From: a virus
Strand: one strand, 5' to 3'
IMG/VR virus record: IMGVR_UViG_3300031576_000030
Location: 1 to 64,000 of that record
DNA: 64,000 bases
Each line of letters opens with the position of its first letter. Within the stretch, counting starts at the first letter, position 1. The notes under the pieces are model-generated. The model searched no databases. It was not told where the DNA came from and saw only the letters and a list, made by a program, of their open reading frames with translations. The position numbers were made by a program, and so were the translations under genes. Shown one piece after another: positions 3,229 through 57,503 of this stretch.

Positions 3229-3948
3229 CTATCCGCCCGAGGTCAGAGAAGCCGTATAGGTGAACTGTATGGAATCACCGCTGACCACGTTTATCGCTGA
3301 GAACACGCTGCGGTCCCACAGCGAACCGCCGCCCGTCGCCGCCTGGTCGAAGATGCCGTGTTCGGTGACAGCAGCCGTGGCGTCGAAGGTCAGCGTGCCC
3401 ACGGTGCGCAGTTGGTTGGCCGCCGGTTGGCTTTCGGTGCCCGTGGCGCGCGTGTTGTCCGGGTTGAGGGCCGTCGTGCTCTCGGTGCCCAGGGCTGTGT
3501 CGGTCGCCGCTTCAGCGGCAACGCCCGTGCCGCAACCGTGGAAGTGCAGGTTGGTGATGTCCTTGGCGTCGTTGTCCCAGTCGTCGACCACGAAGGCCAC
3601 GCCCGCCTCGGTGATGACTCGGTAGGCCACCGTGCCGTAATCCTGCCACACGCCCACACTGCGCGCGTAGGCCAGGGCCGCTTCGCGCTGGCCGCTGTCC
3701 CGCAGCGACTCGTAATAGGCGCGCTGCTCGTCGCTCAACCGCCGCACGCGCACCTCCAACTTCGGGGTGATCGTCAGCACTCCGAAGGCTTTGGAAAACG
3801 CCGGGGCGATGGAGTGGCCGAGCCAGCCACGCCAATAGACCGGACGAATTGCATTGCGCACGCGCCAACGCCAATCCGCTCGACGGTAGGCATGAAATAC
3901 TTGGGCCTCCAACTGGCCGCGCGCGGTCATGACTCCTTGGGTCTGCAT
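3229..3948 (-). CDS. tail/structural protein
   Basis: GTG..AATDTALGTE and VTEHGIF..LWDRSVFSAINVVSGDSIQFTYT signature typical of phage tail-associated beta-sandwich proteins; downstream of tail tube. Confidence 0.6.
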   Translation of the reverse strand: MQTQGVMTARGQLEAQVFHAYRRADWRWRVRNAIRPVYWRGWLGHSIAPAFSKAFGVLTITPKLEVRVRRLSDEQRAYYESLRDSGQREAALAYARSVGVWQDYGTVAYRVITEAGVAFVVDDWDNDAKDITNLHFHGCGTGVAAEAATDTALGTESTTALNPDNTRATGTESQPAANQLRTVGTLTFDATAAVTEHGIFDQAATGGGSLWDRSVFSAINVVSGDSIQFTYTASLTSGG

Positions 3949-26949: not shown

Positions 26950-27867
26950 ATGAGGACCGATCCGCGTGTCCCGCTGGATGTGTTTCGTTCCGCCGGGTTG
27001 GACGCCAGCCGTTTCTTCCGCTCGGACTCCATCAGCGTCCGCGGCCCATGCTGGTGCGGCGGCCATCGACGTCTGGCCGTATGGTTGGCGAAGTGTAACT
27101 ATCAATGCGACGTATGCGGCAGGAAAGGCTTTTTGATAAACCGTAGACCGGACGCCAATACCCTGGCCCAGATGAAAGCCCAGGCGGCGCTGGCCGCCGA
27201 ACGACGCGACCGAGAACGCCTCGCCCGACTGACAGAGTACACTTCGCACGAACTATGGAATGAGTTGCACGACCGCCTGACCGACGACCACCGCATCTGG
27301 TGGGAGAACCAGGGGGTGCCACGAGATTGGCAGGATTATCTGAAGTTAGGCTACGACGCGCACCGCAAGTATCGCGGCCAAGATGGGCAGATCCACGTCT
27401 CACCTGCCTACACCATCCCCTTCTTCCACCGTGATTGGACATTCAAGACCATTCAGTTTCGCCTCAATTCAGTCCAGTATCCCCAGGAGCGCTATCGTTT
27501 CATCCAGGGCCTGGGCACTTGTTTCTACATGAGCACGCCCAACCAGCCGCTGGGCGACGAGGTATTGGTGGTCGAGGGAGCCAAAAAGGCGATGGTCGCC
27601 CACATTCACGGCTGGGGCGGCTGCGTCCTGGCCGTACCCTCCCGCTCAGACTTCGGCGGCATCCAACAGGCCGTCGCCGACTGCGGACGCTGTTATATCC
27701 TGCTCGATCCGGATGCCACGCCACAGGCATACAAGTTGGGCCGATCTATCGGGAAGTCGGCGCGCGTGGTAGAATTACCCGTCAAGGTGGACGATGGCCT
27801 GATGCAATATGGCCTGACACGTGATGGCCTGGCCAGCGCCCTGCGCTACGCCAAGCCAGTCCAGTAA
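26950..27867 (+). CDS. primase-like protein (Zn finger + TOPRIM)
   Basis: CWCGG..CDVC, VLVVEGAKKA, LLDPDA; ATG coupled to a 40-aa ORF starting 26831. Confidence 0.8.
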   Translation: MRTDPRVPLDVFRSAGLDASRFFRSDSISVRGPCWCGGHRRLAVWLAKCNYQCDVCGRKGFLINRRPDANTLAQMKAQAALAAERRDRERLARLTEYTSHELWNELHDRLTDDHRIWWENQGVPRDWQDYLKLGYDAHRKYRGQDGQIHVSPAYTIPFFHRDWTFKTIQFRLNSVQYPQERYRFIQGLGTCFYMSTPNQPLGDEVLVVEGAKKAMVAHIHGWGGCVLAVPSRSDFGGIQQAVADCGRCYILLDPDATPQAYKLGRSIGKSARVVELPVKVDDGLMQYGLTRDGLASALRYAKPVQ

Positions 27868-27869
27868 TC

Positions 27870-28215
27870 ACAACGGGCCGACCGAGACGGAGTGACGGTC
27901 GCGCCCCACATCGCACACGACGCCGAACATCACTCCAACTGTTACTGAGATCACGACGGGTTGCACCCCTAGCGAGACATTTCGTCTCCGGCCCGGACAA
28001 AACCGAGAACAGCGGGCTGCGGATAGACCGCATAGGTGGGTGGAAGGAAACTTCCTTTAGCGACCGGCCTCTACGCCGACTCCGCCGAACCTGCGGATTG
28101 TTCCCTCACACGGAAACGGAGCGGCGCACGCTGTCAGGGCGGCCCTGGGATGACTCCGTCTTTTCCCTGATCGGGAAGCGGATCGTTCCCCAACGCCTTT
28201 TCGTCGTGAAAGAAA
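27870..28215 (+). ncRNA. candidate structured ncRNA or replication origin
   Basis: ~350 nt without credible ORF, numerous stems incl. long-range 27874-27889 with 27983-27995. Confidence 0.45.
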
Positions 28216-28234: not shown

Positions 28235-28636
28235 ATGAGAACCAGATCGAGATTGGAAAATCAATTGAGAACCTGTTTACAACGACATCAGGTCAGCGAT
28301 GAGCAATTGATCGACGACCTGCTCAATATCCTGATGCCGGAACGGGTGCTGACCGACCAGCAGCAGATGATCGGGGCGCTGTGCCAGGTGATGCACTGGG
28401 CCAGCGAACTCAACGGCGGGCGAGTCGCGCCGTTGGCGAGTAAGTTGCTGCAGATGGGCGTGCGGCCCGAAACCATCCTGTCCGAGTACGGGCCGAGTGG
28501 CGGCTACTGGGAGCACGACTGGCGCGGCAGGCAGGGCGAAGTCCCCAACGAGCGCGCCATCTCCGAAACCATCTTGTTTGCCATCAACGGTTGGACAAAC
28601 GATAAACGCGGCGAACGGATGCCGGACGGCGTATGA
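28235..28636 (+). CDS. replication-associated protein (possible helicase loader)
   Basis: AAGGAG RBS; stop overlaps helicase start. Confidence 0.55.
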   Translation: MRTRSRLENQLRTCLQRHQVSDEQLIDDLLNILMPERVLTDQQQMIGALCQVMHWASELNGGRVAPLASKLLQMGVRPETILSEYGPSGGYWEHDWRGRQGEVPNERAISETILFAINGWTNDKRGERMPDGV

Positions 28637-29571
28637 CCACCTCGCCCGCCGACATCCTGTTCACCCCTGGCGAAGCGGCCTCGGCTACGCGCAGTATCCT
28701 GGAGCAGCGCCGGGCTAACCCCGCCTCGGGTGTCTATCTACCTATCGATTCGCTCTTGCCGCACCTCCTGCCCCTGGCCCAGGACAACTTGGTGACGATC
28801 CTGGGACGGCCCGGCAACGGCAAGACCTCGCTGATGATGTGGTGGGCGCGACAGGAAGCGCTGCGCATCGCCCAGAACGGAAATCACAAGCAGGCGGTGG
28901 TCTACATCACCTACGAGCAGTCGGTCGAAGACCTGACGGCCTTTGCTCTCGCCGCCCAGAGTGGCGTTCCCATCGACGCCATGGCGCGCGGCACCATCCG
29001 CGACGATCAATGGCAGGAACTGATGGGCCAGTTCGTTCAGCAGGTGGCCCTGCCCATCGTCGTCATCGGCCACAGCATCGCCCGCCGCCAACGGCGACCT
29101 CGCCTGACGCTGACGGCGGTGATCCACGCCCTGGAATACCTGGTGGACAAACTTCAATTCGAGGTGCGCCTGGTGTTCCTGGACTACCTGCAGCGTATCC
29201 CCGGCGAGAAGTACGTCGGCGACCGGCGTATGGAGGTGTCCGAATCGCTCGACCGCTGCAAGGACAGCGCCCTGTCCTTCGGCGCGCCGTGGGTGGTGGC
29301 CGTCCAGGCGCGGCGCGATGTGGACAGCCGACCACTGCCAGTGCCTCTGATGGCCGACGGCCAGGAGACTGCGGGTATCGAGCAGGCCTCGGACGTTGTG
29401 CTGTCGGTGGTGCGCCCCTCTCACTACCGCAAAGAGGGCGAATCGTTCGGAAAGGTGATCGTCTCCGGTCACAGCCAGATGCTGATCACCATCCTCAAGC
29501 AGCACTTGGGACCCGATAACCTAGCCGTCTGGATCAACTTCGATATCCCGGTCAACACGGTGCGGCAGTGA
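28633..29571 (+). CDS. dnaB: DnaB-like replicative helicase (C-terminal RecA domain)
   Basis: GRPGNGKT, VFLDYLQRI, IEQASDVV. Confidence 0.9.
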   Translation: MTTSPADILFTPGEAASATRSILEQRRANPASGVYLPIDSLLPHLLPLAQDNLVTILGRPGNGKTSLMMWWARQEALRIAQNGNHKQAVVYITYEQSVEDLTAFALAAQSGVPIDAMARGTIRDDQWQELMGQFVQQVALPIVVIGHSIARRQRRPRLTLTAVIHALEYLVDKLQFEVRLVFLDYLQRIPGEKYVGDRRMEVSESLDRCKDSALSFGAPWVVAVQARRDVDSRPLPVPLMADGQETAGIEQASDVVLSVVRPSHYRKEGESFGKVIVSGHSQMLITILKQHLGPDNLAVWINFDIPVNTVRQ

Positions 29572-51237: not shown

Positions 51238-52863
51238 ATGAATATAGGATTCAATCTACCCCAGGACATGATCACCCAGACCTTTGCCATCCTCGCCAAG
51301 CGGCGGACGGGCAAGACCTACACCGCCTCGGTCATGGCCGAGGAGATGGTCAAAGCCGAATTGCCCTTCGTCGTGCTAGACCCGACCGGGGCCTGGTGGG
51401 GGCTACGGGCCTCCGCCGATGGCAAGCGCGAGGGCCTGCCGGTGATCGTCATCGGCGGCGCGCACGGCGACCTGCCGCTGGAGGCGCATTCGGGCAGGCT
51501 GATCGCGGAGATTGTGGTCGAGCATCCAGGCTGGTACGTGATCGATCTATCGCTGAGCCAATCCAACGCGGAGCAAGACCGCTTCGCCCTGGACTTCGCC
51601 GAACGGATATATCGCCTGAAAGAAAAGCACCGTGAGCCGCTGCACCTGTTCGTCGACGAGGCCGACTCCTTTGCCCCGCAGCGGCCTATCCGAGGCCAGG
51701 AACGCATGTTGGGAGCCTACGAGTCCCTGGTGCGTCGCGGCGGCATCCGGGGGGTGGGCGTGACGCTGATCACCCAACGGCCCGCCGTGCTCAACAAGAA
51801 CGTACTCACCCAGACCGAGGTGCTGATCGTCTTGCAGATCACCGCGCCGCAAGACCAAAAGGCCATCGACGACTGGGTGCGTCAGAACGGCACAAAAGAG
51901 GAACGAGATACTCTGATGGCCTCGCTTGCCTCGCTCAAGCAGGGCGAGGCCTGGGTCTGGTCGCCGTCCTGGTTGGAGAAGTTCGAGCGGGTGAGGATCC
52001 GCCAGCGCGAGACGTTCAACTCCTCGGCCACCCCCAAGGCCGGGGAGCGGGCGGTCGTGCCGCAGCGCTTCGCCGCAGTCGACTTGGAGAAATTGCGCGC
52101 GCGAATCTTGGGTACCACGCAGCGCGTCCAGCAGGAAGACCCTCAGACGCTGCGCGAGGAGATCGCCGCCTTACGCCGACAATTGAACGCCCGCCCGACC
52201 GAGGTGCGCGAGGTGATTAAAGAGGTCTTCCCCGACGCGCTGCGCTCCAGCCTATCCGCCGCCCTGGAAGATGTCCATACCTCGCTGGAGGGTGTTGGCA
52301 CGTCTCTGTCCCATGTGGAGGCGCTGCTCCAGCCGGTAGAGGCCATCCAGCCTGCCGATCACAAGACGGTCAAGGGGCTGCGGCGCGGGGGATGGCAGAT
52401 ACTCGCCACGCTGTCGGCTTACAACAGCCTGACCCCCGCCCAACTTGCCACGCTGTCGTACATGGCGAAGTCAGGCACGTTCCAGACCTACCTCAGCCAA
52501 TTGCGCCAGTTCGGGTTCATCGAGTCAAATGGCAGGGGCCTGGCGATCACCGAACGTGGACTATTCCATTACACGGAGAATCGCGAGCCGCTGCTGCCGC
52601 CACCGGCCACCACACAGGAGATCGTCGCGGCCTGGTCGGTCAAACTCCGCAGCGGTGCGCGGCGCATGCTGGCGGCCTTGATACCCCATTATCCGCGCGG
52701 TATCAGCCGGGGTACCCTGGCGAGCGAGGCGGGCTTGCAGAAGTCGGGTACGTTCCAGACGTACCTGTCCACCTTGAAGCGCCTGGGTCTGGCCGAGACC
52801 GGAATCAACACCGTCAAGGCTAGTCCCACCTTGTTCTTGAATCGAGGAGGCAACCATGAGTGA
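51238..52863 (+). CDS. HerA/FtsK-like (DUF87) ATPase with coiled coil and two C-terminal winged-helix repeats
   Basis: AKRRTGKT, VVLDPTG, LFVDEAD, ITQRP; KSGTFQTYLS twice. Confidence 0.85.
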   Translation: MNIGFNLPQDMITQTFAILAKRRTGKTYTASVMAEEMVKAELPFVVLDPTGAWWGLRASADGKREGLPVIVIGGAHGDLPLEAHSGRLIAEIVVEHPGWYVIDLSLSQSNAEQDRFALDFAERIYRLKEKHREPLHLFVDEADSFAPQRPIRGQERMLGAYESLVRRGGIRGVGVTLITQRPAVLNKNVLTQTEVLIVLQITAPQDQKAIDDWVRQNGTKEERDTLMASLASLKQGEAWVWSPSWLEKFERVRIRQRETFNSSATPKAGERAVVPQRFAAVDLEKLRARILGTTQRVQQEDPQTLREEIAALRRQLNARPTEVREVIKEVFPDALRSSLSAALEDVHTSLEGVGTSLSHVEALLQPVEAIQPADHKTVKGLRRGGWQILATLSAYNSLTPAQLATLSYMAKSGTFQTYLSQLRQFGFIESNGRGLAITERGLFHYTENREPLLPPPATTQEIVAAWSVKLRSGARRMLAALIPHYPRGISRGTLASEAGLQKSGTFQTYLSTLKRLGLAETGINTVKASPTLFLNRGGNHE

Positions 52864-53868: not shown

Positions 53869-54084
53869 CACCCTACCTCACCGGTCTATACTGGCTCACC
53901 ATCCGGCCCGAATACGAGCCGACTCGTCCGGTTCGCGCTCACAAGAAAGGCATCACCCCATGATGGATGCCTATGCCCTGGGGTTTTTCCACGGGGTGTT
54001 GGGTTGCCTGGCATCCTACGTGATCGCCACCGTCGTGACGGGCTTGGCCTGGTTCGAGTGGATGAAACACAAAGCGTCGGTGAG

Positions 54085-54501
54085 ATGAAGTTCCCTCCCG
54101 ATGCGCGGTTATCCGCCTGGCGCATCCGCGTCCCACCGCTGGCGAGCGATGACAGTTATGGCAACAACGGCGCATTCCTGGTGCCGGGGCCGCATCGGGT
54201 GGCGCTGCAGGTGATCGCTTCCGATGGAATGGGGTGGGATCACGTCAGCGTCAGCCCTCAAGCGCCGCGAACCCCTTTATGGGACGAGATGGACTTCGTG
54301 AAGTCCATCTTTTGGGACGACAAAGAGGCCGTCATGCAACTGCACCCGCCCCGATCTACTTGGGTAAATAACCATCCGTATGTGTTGCACCTATGGCGAC
54401 CTCTGGGCGGGATAGAGATTCCGCTGCCGCCTGAGAACCTGGTGGGGATCAAAGCGGCGGGTACATTCGACGTCAAGTTCAGTGCAACACGATCATCTTA
54501 A
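54085..54501 (+). CDS. conserved phage hypothetical protein
   Basis: NGAF..IASDGMGWDHVSVS..RTPLWDEM..K..FW..QLHP..VNNHP..LHLW. Confidence 0.75.
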   Translation: MKFPPDARLSAWRIRVPPLASDDSYGNNGAFLVPGPHRVALQVIASDGMGWDHVSVSPQAPRTPLWDEMDFVKSIFWDDKEAVMQLHPPRSTWVNNHPYVLHLWRPLGGIEIPLPPENLVGIKAAGTFDVKFSATRSS

Positions 54502-54511
54502 GGAGGTGGAC

Positions 54512-55144
54512 ATGAACAATATCACCACGACCCAGTACGACCTGCACATCACCCTGACCGCGCCGCTGCTGGGGACACAGCCGCCCAAAGACGTGGCGAC
54601 CAAGTACCTAACCAGCCAGGTTCTCGACGCAGCCCGCTTGCCATCGAATGTAGTAGAGGTAGGCGACGACACCGTGGCCGCCGCAGACGAGTTGGAGACT
54701 CTGCCCGAACTGCTGGAGCGCGGCACGACCGCCTTCCACACCCTGGACGGTCGGCCCATCCTGTACAACTACCACGTCAAGGGCTTTCTCAAGGAGGCGG
54801 GTTCGGTCTTCAACGGCCTGCGCGGAGTCAAGAACCTGCGCTCCAAGATCGACTCGTTGGTGTTCGTGACGCCCCGACGCATCGAGTTGTACCACGACCA
54901 GCCGATGGGGATTCTGGAACGGCCTTTGCGGGCCATGACCGCCCAAGGCCCGCGCACAGCGCTCGCCCGTTCCGAGATGTTGCCGGAGGGGACACGCTTT
55001 GACTGCCTCTTGGAAGTCTACGACGGCCCGATCAGCCATCTACTGCTGACCGACCTCCTCAGTTATGGAGAAAAAAAGGGGCTGGGTCAGTGGCGGAACT
55101 CTTCCGTCTACGGCACGTTTTCCTTCGTCCTCGTCAAGCGATAG
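54512..55144 (+). CDS. stand-alone Cas7/RAMP-superfamily protein
   Basis: AAGGAGGT RBS; beta1 HITLTAPLLGT, PILYNYHVKGFLKEA helix, ERPLRA..RSE thumb, C-terminal G-rich loop GEKKGLGQWRNSSVYGTF. Confidence 0.8.
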   Translation: MNNITTTQYDLHITLTAPLLGTQPPKDVATKYLTSQVLDAARLPSNVVEVGDDTVAAADELETLPELLERGTTAFHTLDGRPILYNYHVKGFLKEAGSVFNGLRGVKNLRSKIDSLVFVTPRRIELYHDQPMGILERPLRAMTAQGPRTALARSEMLPEGTRFDCLLEVYDGPISHLLLTDLLSYGEKKGLGQWRNSSVYGTFSFVLVKR

Positions 55145-55430
55145 CGAGGTATCGTATCGTGAGTGCCCGGTGTTGCATTGCGTTGCATGGGCATGGTGAG
55201 GTGGAGTGAAGCGTTGCTCTGGCAGGGTGAAGCAGGGTGTAGTCCGGCATAGCAACCGCAGAGTATGGACGAGTGTTGCGAACGCGATGTGGAGTAAGGC
55301 GCCGTTTAGCGCAGGTATAGTTCGGTGTTTCGCAGCACCAGCGAGGTTGTGCCAAGTGGAGCGAAGGCGCAGTACGGTTTGGCAGCGCGAGGGCAAAGCC
55401 AGGTGATGTACCGCTCAGGTATAGCGGGGT
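55141..55430 (+). ncRNA. periodic NNNGY pentamer array, candidate guide RNA(s) of the RAMP protein
   Basis: 56 contiguous units (46 x 5 nt, 10 x 6 nt), 54 end in GT/GC; starts at RAMP stop codon; no credible ORF. Confidence 0.8.
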
Positions 55431-56586: not shown

Positions 56587-57503
56587 TCCATCAACCAGGG
56601 CAACGGGTCCACAATTTCGGCGGGCCAGCCGGGGAGTTGCTCACCCACCACCTTTAACGTGAGGTGAAGATGATCGCCAAAGGAATTTCCGGTGTCGTCA
56701 GCCATGCCGATCTTCTGGCCGCGTACTACTATGTCCCCAACAGATACTAAGACTTGTTGAAGATGTGCCGATATAGTTTTGACTTCCTTCCCCCCGATCA
56801 CATGCCGGATGCGGATGTGGATACCGTAAGCACCCACGTCGCTATCCTGAATCCGATACACCACCCCATCCGCGCAAGCGTAGACAGGCGAACCAGCCGG
56901 CGCACGGATGTCTATTCCCTCATGCCCCGGAAAACCAAATGGCGCGTACATGGCCGGGTTCGCCCCAAAGCGTTGCGTCACGACAGGGAAATCTGTCGGC
57001 CAGGCCAGCCGCCCTTCTCCGCCACCGCCGGTGGTCAGGCGCTCCAGCACGTTGCGCCACACGTTACGGCCCGAGGTCAGGTCGAGAAAAGCGCGGTCGG
57101 GCCATATACCGGCATTCGCCTCGCGCCATACCTCGATCTCCGTGCCCGCCGTGAGCGTCTCGCCCAGGTATTGGCCGGTGGCGTCCCGAACCTTTGCCGC
57201 GCCGGTCAGCCGAGCACGGTACAACGGTTGTGGGGGTAGGGGCAATTGCCCGTCCAGTCGTCGCTTCAACTCGTCTCGCTCGGCGGTCAAGGCCACCACC
57301 TGTGCCTGTAACGCCTGATTCTCCCCTGTCTCCGGGATCTCAAACTCTGCCGGGTTCACGCCCTTGAACGTCAGGCCCACATGCAAATTTCCTACGCCGC
57401 GTGCGGCCATCGTCATCAGCCGCTCGGCCACGGCCTTGAATTCGGCCAAGACCTCGGGCGGTTCGTCCTCGATGGAACTGAGTAATGTCCAACTTCCGCT
57501 CAT
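56583..57503 (-). CDS. M23 peptidase endolysin with SH3-like domain
   Basis: GHEGIDI, YGIHIRIRH, AHL, GDHLHL. Confidence 0.9.
   Translation of the reverse strand: MSGSWTLLSSIEDEPPEVLAEFKAVAERLMTMAARGVGNLHVGLTFKGVNPAEFEIPETGENQALQAQVVALTAERDELKRRLDGQLPLPPQPLYRARLTGAAKVRDATGQYLGETLTAGTEIEVWREANAGIWPDRAFLDLTSGRNVWRNVLERLTTGGGGEGRLAWPTDFPVVTQRFGANPAMYAPFGFPGHEGIDIRAPAGSPVYACADGVVYRIQDSDVGAYGIHIRIRHVIGGKEVKTISAHLQQVLVSVGDIVVRGQKIGMADDTGNSFGDHLHLTLKVVGEQLPGWPAEIVDPLPWLME

What the first reader, a model, noticed from the sequence alone, without database searches (positions are those of the whole stretch)
55141..55430. Second-level punctuation in the array: a 6-nt unit every 5-7 units
Seen: hexamers fall at units 5, 10, 16, 23, 28, 34, 39, 44, 49 and 54, giving blocks of 26, 31 or 36 nt, mostly 26. 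The blocks differ in sequence, though CAGGTATAG recurs at two junctions (55312, 55416). This is not a decayed microsatellite pattern. Inference: hexamers mark boundaries or processing sites of about ten separate guides, or register adjustments of the filament.
Basis: partly seen in the sequence, partly recalled or inferred. Interest (0 to 1): 0.75.

Follow-up and report, generated by a model that had tools for sequence, protein, structure and literature searches.

The report
Hexamer punctuation in VIPR guide array
The five-base rhythm with one extra base every 26-36 bases is real. It is the guide-RNA array of a phage VIPR system, a CRISPR-related RNA-guided DNA silencer described in 2026 preprints, so it is a clean new example of a known kind.

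Summary
From 55145 to 55429 (+) the DNA reads as 57 units of the form Y-N-N-N-G. Forty-seven are pentamers and ten are hexamers, and the hexamers lie 26, 31, 36, 26, 31, 26, 26, 26 and 26 nt apart. Random placement never gave such even spacing in 200,000 trials.

The gene directly upstream (54512-55144) encodes a stand-alone Cas7-like RAMP. It shares a G-x-G-[D/Q]-W-R loop with the characterised Vipr of Escherichia phage SUSP1.

The punctuation is family-wide. In 66 distinct arrays beside homologous genes in uncultured phages, 71% of hexamer-to-hexamer gaps hold 4-6 pentamers, against about 20% expected by chance. Those hexamers have their own consensus, Y-A-A-N-G-G, and arrays usually begin with one.

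This fits the "staggered vrRNA arrays" and YNNNG repeats named in the VIPR preprint (bioRxiv 10.64898/2026.04.26.720920). The most likely reading is that hexamers delimit about ten or eleven short guides of 4-7 protomer steps. No RNA ends or targets could be shown here, and a register slip inside one continuous filament is not excluded.

This scan has already reported the same grammar in at least 22 other genomes. Verdict: new member of a known kind, modest interest.

The parts
54512..55144 (+). vipr-like gene: stand-alone Cas7-like RAMP of 210 aa (ATG at 54512; the listed ORF starts at GTG 54482)
   Evidence: 1435 homologues, none with a Pfam domain. AlphaFold2 model with mean pLDDT 81.5. Foldseek top hits are Cas7 of type VII, Csm3 and Cas7-11, E about 1e-7, probability 1.0. 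The invariant loop G-x-G-Q-W-R-N aligns to G-V-G-D-W-R of SUSP1 Vipr.
55139..55144 (+). leading hexamer overlapping the TAG stop codon of the gene
   Evidence: Parse. In 41 of 66 related arrays the first hexamer is the first or second unit.
55145..55429 (+). guide (vrRNA-type) array: 47 Y-N-N-N-G pentamers and 10 Y-N-N-N-N-G hexamers
   Evidence: The RNA folds no better than shuffles, z = +0.30. No Rfam match. It is the only such array in the 74,968-bp genome.
55160..55165 (+). hexamer 1
55186..55191 (+). hexamer 2 (ends GG)
55217..55222 (+). hexamer 3 (ends GG)
55253..55258 (+). hexamer 4
55279..55284 (+). hexamer 5
55310..55315 (+). hexamer 6 (ends GG; junction 9-mer repeated at hexamer 10)
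55336..55341 (+). hexamer 7
55362..55367 (+). hexamer 8 (ends GG)
55388..55393 (+). hexamer 9 (ends GG)
55414..55419 (+). hexamer 10 (ends GG)

Best explanation
The stretch is the guide-RNA array of a minimal VIPR system: one Cas7-like Vipr protein plus pentamer-coded RNA. By analogy with the solved type II complex, one protomer binds each 5-nt step, holds the conserved G-Y junction, and presents the variable bases to double-stranded DNA. The hexamers are punctuation. Each adds one base and so breaks the 5-nt register, cutting the transcript into about ten or eleven short guides of 4-7 protomer steps (21-36 nt). The cut could be RNA cleavage at or next to the hexamer, or filaments simply failing to continue across the slip. 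This is the 'staggered vrRNA array' layout. Shown here: the grammar, its conservation across the family, the RAMP fold and the shared G-loop. Inferred: transcription, protein coating, and that hexamers are guide ends.
For: Grammar and its significance in the window. RAMP fold. G-loop match to SUSP1 Vipr. In that alignment the Asp that contacts the first G of GGY (D177, bioRxiv 10.64898/2026.04.26.720927) is an invariant Gln in this family. This fits the loss of that G in the pentamers. Of 80 IMG/VR loci with a homologous gene, 74 carry a high-scoring array, nearly always directly beside the gene. Across 66 distinct arrays (5152 pentamers, 1131 hexamers, only 78 tetramers), gaps of 4, 5 and 6 pentamers make up 28%, 28% and 15% of all gaps, against about 8%, 7% and 5% under a geometric model. 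Hexamers have their own logo (C/T, A, A, N, G 87%, G 99%), and the next unit is enriched for C-A. Most arrays have 85-100% GG-ending hexamers, against 20-35% G at pentamer position 4. Arrays tend to start with a hexamer and end with a run of pentamers, and they share no conserved 3' tail. Block length is variable, which is expected for guides and not for a fixed helical requirement. The preprint names YNNNG repeats and staggered arrays in which one vrRNA ends where the next starts.
Against: There are no RNA data. The preprint says staggered arrays were not among the layouts confirmed by small-RNA sequencing, and I could not see its figure S18. Guides of 5-7 steps would carry only 10-14 read bases under the published two-base rule, far fewer than the 18-32 of type II vrRNAs. 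No target was found under any rule. Among related arrays, switches between conserved and unrelated sequence fall at hexamer boundaries only slightly more often than expected, 17 of 65 against 16%. Only 6 of the 10 window hexamers end in GG. The modal block of 5-6 units equals the 5-6 protomers per helical turn reported for the filament. That would also suit a purely structural role.
Confidence: 0.55

Rival explanations
1. One continuous filament: the whole array of about 285 nt is a single guide or scaffold, and each hexamer is a one-base bulge that resets the helical register about once per turn.
For: The modal spacing of 5-6 units per hexamer equals the five (DNA-bound) or six (RNA-only) protomers per turn reported for the Vipr filament. 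The array has no internal tails or hairpins and folds no better than shuffles. Mosaic breakpoints in related arrays respect hexamers only weakly.
Against: Spacing ranges from 3 to 8 pentamers within single arrays. The window itself has 3, 4, 5 and 6 pentamers between hexamers. A geometric requirement should give a constant interval. A hexamer sits at the very start of most arrays, where no register has yet built up. A 10-unit gapped pattern read across a hexamer had no exact match in IMG/VR, though this is weak evidence.
Confidence: 0.2
2. Phase breaks without cleavage: the transcript stays intact, but the +1 slip and the GG of the hexamer act as nucleation or capping sites, so separate short filaments sit side by side on one RNA.
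For: Hexamers restore the canonical GG that the pentamers lack. No ribozyme, hairpin or conserved tail that could direct cleavage is visible. No nuclease gene is conserved next to the module.
Against: The legend of figure S18 in the preprint speaks of 'processed vrRNAs'. Host RNases could trim any unprotected base. Nothing here distinguishes this from the cleavage version.
Confidence: 0.15
3. The hexamers are neutral one-base insertions (slippage noise) in a pentamer array and have no function.
For: None, beyond the imperfect GG rule in this window (6 of 10).
Against: Insertions outnumber deletions 1131 to 78. Their spacing is strongly non-geometric, and they carry a specific consensus conserved across proteins only 31-57% identical.
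Confidence: 0.02

Closest known systems
VIPR systems with 'staggered vrRNA arrays' and alternative YNNNG repeats (bioRxiv 10.64898/2026.04.26.720920, text and legend of fig. S18, methods on type classification)
   Same: Phage-borne stand-alone RAMP next to a tandem pentanucleotide array with a conserved G-Y junction and variable bases. There are no cas genes and no CRISPR repeats. Guides abut one another without tails.
   Different: I could not view the figure, so identity of the 5n+1 grammar with 'staggered' is inferred from the legend. The preprint text held here gives no hexamer consensus, block-size distribution or RNA-end data for this layout. No accessory (vap) gene is conserved beside this subfamily.
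Type II VIPR of Escherichia phage SUSP1 (NC_028808.2, vipr at 28474-29061, vrRNAs at 27619-27969 and 29170-29234)
   Same: A small protein of similar size (195 aa in SUSP1, 210 aa here) with a G-x-G-x-W-R glycine loop. The RNA is built of 5-nt steps, and the gene and array are adjacent on the same strand.
   Different: SUSP1 uses Y-N-N-G-G units, 9-16 per vrRNA, each vrRNA capped by a conserved pseudoknot tail, and has a vap1 gene. Here the units are Y-N-N-N-G, blocks hold 4-7 units, no tail is present, hexamers punctuate the array, and Gln replaces the G1-contacting Asp. Profile similarity is confined to 38 columns (hhalign probability 28%).
Class 1 CRISPR Cas7 backbone filaments (Csm3, Cas7 of types I, III and VII)
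   Same: The RAMP fold with thumb hairpin and glycine loop is shared. One protomer binds each fixed step of guide RNA, and bases are flipped out at each step.
   Different: The CRISPR step is 6 nt with 5 paired bases. CRISPR guides are spacers between long repeats and are processed by Cas6 or Cas5. Here the periodic signal is written into the guide itself, and there is no repeat-spacer array or adaptation module.

Membership tests
VIPR (Vipr protein + vrRNA) | Stand-alone RAMP protein with a single RRM core, thumb hairpin and glycine-rich loop | tested here: met
   The model has pLDDT 81.5, a long beta-hairpin at residues 133-157 and a glycine loop at 188-202. All top Foldseek hits are Cas7-type RAMPs, E about 1e-7 and TM 0.5-0.59.
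VIPR (Vipr protein + vrRNA) | Sequence homology to an experimentally characterised Vipr | tested here: inconclusive
   hhalign of the family alignment against SUSP1 Vipr gives probability 28% and E 6e-4 over 38 columns. These cover the last helix and the G-x-G-[D/Q]-W-R loop only. No VIPR structure was in the PDB copies searched.
VIPR (Vipr protein + vrRNA) | Adjacent tandem pentanucleotide repeats with conserved scaffold bases alternating with hypervariable bases | tested here: met
   G 95% at position 5, pyrimidine 92% at position 1, and positions 3-4 near uniform.
VIPR (Vipr protein + vrRNA) | Canonical GGY scaffold | tested here: not met
   In pentamers the position before the conserved G is G in only 28% of units across the family and 33% in the window. 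GG appears mainly in the hexamers. The preprint lists YNNNG as an accepted alternative consensus, so this does not exclude membership.
VIPR (Vipr protein + vrRNA) | Conserved structured 3' tail capping each vrRNA (type II) | tested here: not met
   Sequence downstream of the arrays is not conserved. The array RNA is no more structured than shuffles. No Rfam hit.
VIPR (Vipr protein + vrRNA) | Viral context without cas genes or a CRISPR array | tested here: met
   The genome is a 74,968-bp virus record with 127-bp direct terminal repeats. Neighbours are phage genes. No repeat-spacer array was found.
VIPR (Vipr protein + vrRNA) | Conserved accessory gene (vap) | tested here: not met
   No neighbour of the window gene recurs beside the 80 relatives. 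The commonest neighbour family is SSB, in 17 loci at varying positions. The preprint also reports stand-alone vipr genes.
VIPR (Vipr protein + vrRNA) | Variable bases match DNA targets under the two-read, one-skip rule | tested here: inconclusive
   No enrichment over shuffled controls was seen in 0.56 Mb of related loci, in the window's own genome or in seven sibling genomes. One 12-of-12 in-frame hit was found, but it is within chance.
VIPR (Vipr protein + vrRNA) | vrRNA is expressed and co-purifies with the protein | not testable with these tools
   Needs small-RNA sequencing and pull-down.
Staggered vrRNA array (fig. S18 of the preprint) | Consecutive vrRNAs abut, with the end of one marking the start of the next (1-nt offset) | tested here: inconclusive
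   The 5n+1 block grammar with +1 register slips fits the legend. The figure itself and RNA ends were not available.
CRISPR array | Identical direct repeats of 20-50 nt separating unique spacers, with cas1/cas2 nearby | tested here: not met
   No such repeats were found, and no Cas families appear among the neighbours.

The most novel reading that the evidence does not exclude
The hexamers define guides only one helical turn long (4-7 protomers, 10-21 read bases). They do so through a two-tier code. A Vipr variant with Gln in place of the G1-contacting Asp tolerates any base at that site in ordinary steps. A full GG plus one extra base marks the terminal step, which ends or nucleates the filament without any dedicated processing enzyme. 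These would be the shortest guides of any RNA-guided DNA binder known to me.
Probability: 0.2. Interest if true: 0.6.

Novelty: new member of a known kind. Interest (0 to 1): 0.3.

Why it matters
VIPR is a very recent addition to RNA-guided systems, and its staggered arrays were described only briefly and without RNA-end data. The measurements here cover the Y-A-A-N-G-G consensus, the 4-6-pentamer spacing across 66 arrays, the leading hexamer, the missing tail, and the Asp-to-Gln change at the guanine contact. Together they give concrete predictions for how such arrays are cut into guides, and they allow block boundaries to be called automatically. For this window itself the result is an annotation: a minimal vipr gene plus about ten or eleven guides in a 75-kb GC-rich uncultured phage.

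Tried and rejected
1. Rfam, tRNA and tandem-repeat tools found nothing at the site.

2. Ordinary RNA structure was rejected: the fold z-score is +0.30.

3. Protein coding was rejected. The conserved signal is a 5-nt phase with +1 slips, and ORFs across it are incidental.

4. Target search by spaced seeds used 20 reading rules (five sets of read positions, skips of 0-3). It compared 1192 blocks with 0.56 Mb of related loci. Hits matched reversed controls.

5. A self-target search of the window gave best matches equal to shuffles.

6. A search of 105 blocks from seven sibling arrays against their seven full genomes (720,390 positions) showed no clear excess. Positions 2-3 with a 1-nt skip gave 188 hits against 154 for controls. 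The wobble-skip phase was not enriched, at 59 against 57.

7. One block matched 12 of 12 read bases in frame, on codons for N-K-H-Y-Y-N, in six of the seven sibling genomes including its own. This is within chance, and the neighbouring blocks do not match alongside it.

8. Three IMG/VR pattern scans were run from the window's longest block and across a hexamer. Two gave nothing. One 18-mer hit two related contigs, which is at chance level, and the match does not extend.

9. Codon-signature tests on the variable positions showed only general TA depletion and A-richness, so they decide nothing.

10. The end points of shared segments between related arrays are diffuse. A unit-level alignment gives only weak enrichment of breakpoints at hexamers.

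11. No close relative of this particular array exists in the collections searched. The best protein identities are 65% among database homologues and 57% in IMG/VR. Block gain or loss could therefore be studied only in another clade.

Full report
**What is in the sequence**

The vipr-like gene ends with TAG at 55142-55144. A small membrane-protein ORF starts at 55429. Between them lies a stretch of about 285 nt with no tandem repeat detectable by TRF and no Rfam or tRNA match.

Base autocorrelation peaks at lags 5 and 10, and more strongly at 21, 26, 31 and 36. A best-path parse into units that start with a pyrimidine and end with G gives 57 units from 55145 to 55429. Forty-seven are pentamers and ten are hexamers. 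Only two units break the Y...G rule.

The hexamers start at 55160, 55186, 55217, 55253, 55279, 55310, 55336, 55362, 55388 and 55414. Spacings are 26, 31, 36, 26, 31, 26, 26, 26 and 26 nt. One more hexamer (55139-55144) overlaps the stop codon.

With a log-odds version of the parse the array scores 94. Nothing else on either strand of the window or of the whole 74,968-bp genome exceeds 13.3. Random placement of ten hexamers among 55 units never gave gaps all within 4-6 in 200,000 trials.

**What the neighbouring gene is**

The 210-aa product of 54512-55144 has no Pfam, PHROG or PDB sequence match. It has 1435 homologues in metagenomes.

An AlphaFold2 model built on 24 of them has mean pLDDT 81.5. 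Foldseek matches it with probability 1.0 to Cas7-type RAMPs: type VII Cas7, Csm3 and Cas7-11. The alignment shows an invariant C-terminal glycine loop, G-x-G-Q-W-R-N.

A note from another first-stage reading of the same stretch used the word "VIPR-like". A literature search then found two 2026 preprints. They describe Viral Interference Programmable Repeat systems:
- a stand-alone RAMP (Vipr) polymerises on an RNA made of Y-N-N-G-G pentamers, one protomer per repeat;
- it sequesters G-G-Y and presents N-N to double-stranded DNA, skipping every third target base.

The first preprint also reports alternative repeats (NNNGG, YNNNG, NNNNG). [quoted passage not shown] That layout was not among those confirmed by small-RNA sequencing.

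**Link to a characterised Vipr**

I located the SUSP1 locus in NC_028808.2 by its Y-N-N-G-G runs. I then compared its 195-aa protein with the family alignment. Similarity is weak, at probability 28% over 38 columns, but it covers the glycine loop. SUSP1 G-V-G-D-W-R aligns with G-L-G-Q-W-R here.

In the structure paper D177 hydrogen-bonds the first G of GGY, W178 stacks on the second G, and R179 helps hold the pyrimidine. In this family W and R are invariant and the Asp is an invariant Gln. That agrees with arrays that keep G-Y but have lost the first G. This last step is inference.

**Is the punctuation a family trait?**

A scan of IMG/VR with the family alignment returned 80 loci. The array detector found a high-scoring array in 74 of them, nearly always directly beside the gene, and a few loci carry arrays on both sides.

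Across 66 distinct arrays there are 5152 pentamers, 1131 hexamers and only 78 tetramers. The number of pentamers between successive hexamers is 4 (28%), 5 (28%), 6 (15%), 3 (9%) or 7 (5%). A geometric model with the same hexamer frequency predicts about 20% for 4-6 together, against 71% observed.

The hexamers are a distinct kind of unit. Their logo is C/T, A 59%, A 66%, N, G 87%, G 99%, and the following unit is enriched for C-A. In most arrays 85-100% of hexamers end in GG, whereas only 20-35% of pentamers have G at position 4. The window is at the relaxed end with 6 of 10.

In 41 of 66 arrays the first or second unit is a hexamer. Arrays usually end in a run of pentamers, and the sequence beyond them is not conserved, so there is no common tail. 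The array RNA is no more structured than shuffled versions.

**What the hexamers most likely do**

Four results point to guide boundaries:
- block length varies within single arrays, unlike a fixed geometric need;
- the punctuation unit has its own consensus, restoring the canonical GG;
- a hexamer stands at the very start of arrays, where it could separate the first guide from the mRNA;
- the preprint describes staggered arrays in these terms.

I therefore read the window array as about ten or eleven guides of 21-36 nt.

Three points count against this reading:
- such guides would carry only 10-14 read bases under the published rule;
- the modal 5-6 units per block equals the 5-6 protomers per helical turn of the filament, which would also suit a structural register slip;
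- I have no RNA ends.

Among seven related phages, arrays are collinear mosaics of shared and unrelated blocks. However, switches between shared and unrelated sequence coincide with hexamer boundaries only slightly more than expected, 17 of 65 against 16%, and the events are not independent.

**Target searches**

None gave a significant result. I tried 20 reading rules on 1192 blocks against 0.56 Mb of related loci, and the window array against its own genome. I also tried 105 blocks of seven sibling arrays against their complete genomes, fetched and analysed. Finally I ran three exact-pattern scans of IMG/VR.

One block matched 12 of 12 read bases in codon register in six of the seven sibling genomes. 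A 12-base match in 0.72 million positions is within chance, and the flanking blocks do not match beside it. Single blocks hold too little information for database searches under the two-base rule. This also means the boundary model cannot be tested this way.

**Context**

The genome is a 75-kb uncultured virus record with 61% G+C and 127-bp direct terminal repeats. The module sits after a HerA/FtsK-type ATPase and a DUF7694 gene, and before a small membrane protein and an M23 peptidase. None of these neighbours recurs beside the relatives' genes. The only recurrent neighbour family is SSB, in 17 of 80 loci at varying positions. The mobile unit therefore appears to be just the gene plus its array, with no conserved accessory gene.

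**Novelty**

The system, the alternative repeat and the staggered layout are all in the April-June 2026 preprints. Earlier follow-ups in this scan have reported the same grammar in at least 22 other genomes. This is a new member of a known kind. The family-wide numbers, the hexamer consensus and the Asp-to-Gln correlation may be useful additions, but they do not change the category.

Noticed in passing
L040:5079-5183 (+), 1.3 kb downstream of the staggered array at L040:3565-3812: The same phage locus carries a second array of 21 almost pure canonical Y-N-N-G-G pentamers with no hexamers, followed by a T-run. Both array styles therefore occur beside one vipr-like gene.
   Followed up: partly
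L040:3565-3812: A two-block segment of about 62 nt is duplicated in tandem. The copies differ by single changes at unit positions 1, 2, 3 and 4. This suggests new guides arise by block duplication and point divergence.
   Followed up: no
L049, L052, L055, L056, L057, L058, L059 (arrays starting about 3666-3702 in each locus): In seven related phages the blocks nearest the gene are the most variable. The last block and several distal blocks are conserved in the same order. This polarity is reminiscent of leader-proximal turnover in CRISPR arrays.
   Followed up: partly
L082-L084 (G001) position 56633 and homologous sites in G003-G007: One block of the G001 array matches 12 of 12 read bases, in codon register, of a conserved gene (peptide N-K-H-Y-Y-N). 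The match also occurs in the phage's own genome. It is within chance for this database size.
   Followed up: partly
L031, L033, L050: Arrays lie on both sides of the vipr-like gene, as in SUSP1. In some loci both strands score alike because most units start with C and end with G.
   Followed up: no
17 of 80 related loci, e.g. L046:4405-4818, L022:396-800: An SSB gene (PF00436) lies within 3 kb of the vipr-like gene at varying positions. This suggests the module often sits in the replication or early region of these phages.
   Followed up: partly
window 51238-52863 (+) and 54004-54501 (+): A HerA/FtsK-type ATPase, annotated in PHROGs as a terminase-like packaging ATPase, and a DUF7694 protein lie upstream of the module. 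The DUF7694 ORF overlaps the long GTG-initiated form of the vipr ORF.
   Followed up: no
L043:4234-4473 (-): The detector also picked up a 15-nt tandem repeat (16 copies) that mimics three pentamers per copy. It is an ordinary tandem repeat, not a guide array, and a false-positive class for pentamer scans.
   Followed up: partly
phage records MT835513.1, MT835520.1, MT835477.1, MT839334.1 and BK013345.1: Only five deposited phage records encode a detectable relative of the protein (24-36% identity). Four come from human faecal viromes and one is an Aquificae hot-spring virus. Four of the five records carry no annotation, and the fifth calls the gene a hypothetical protein.
   Followed up: no
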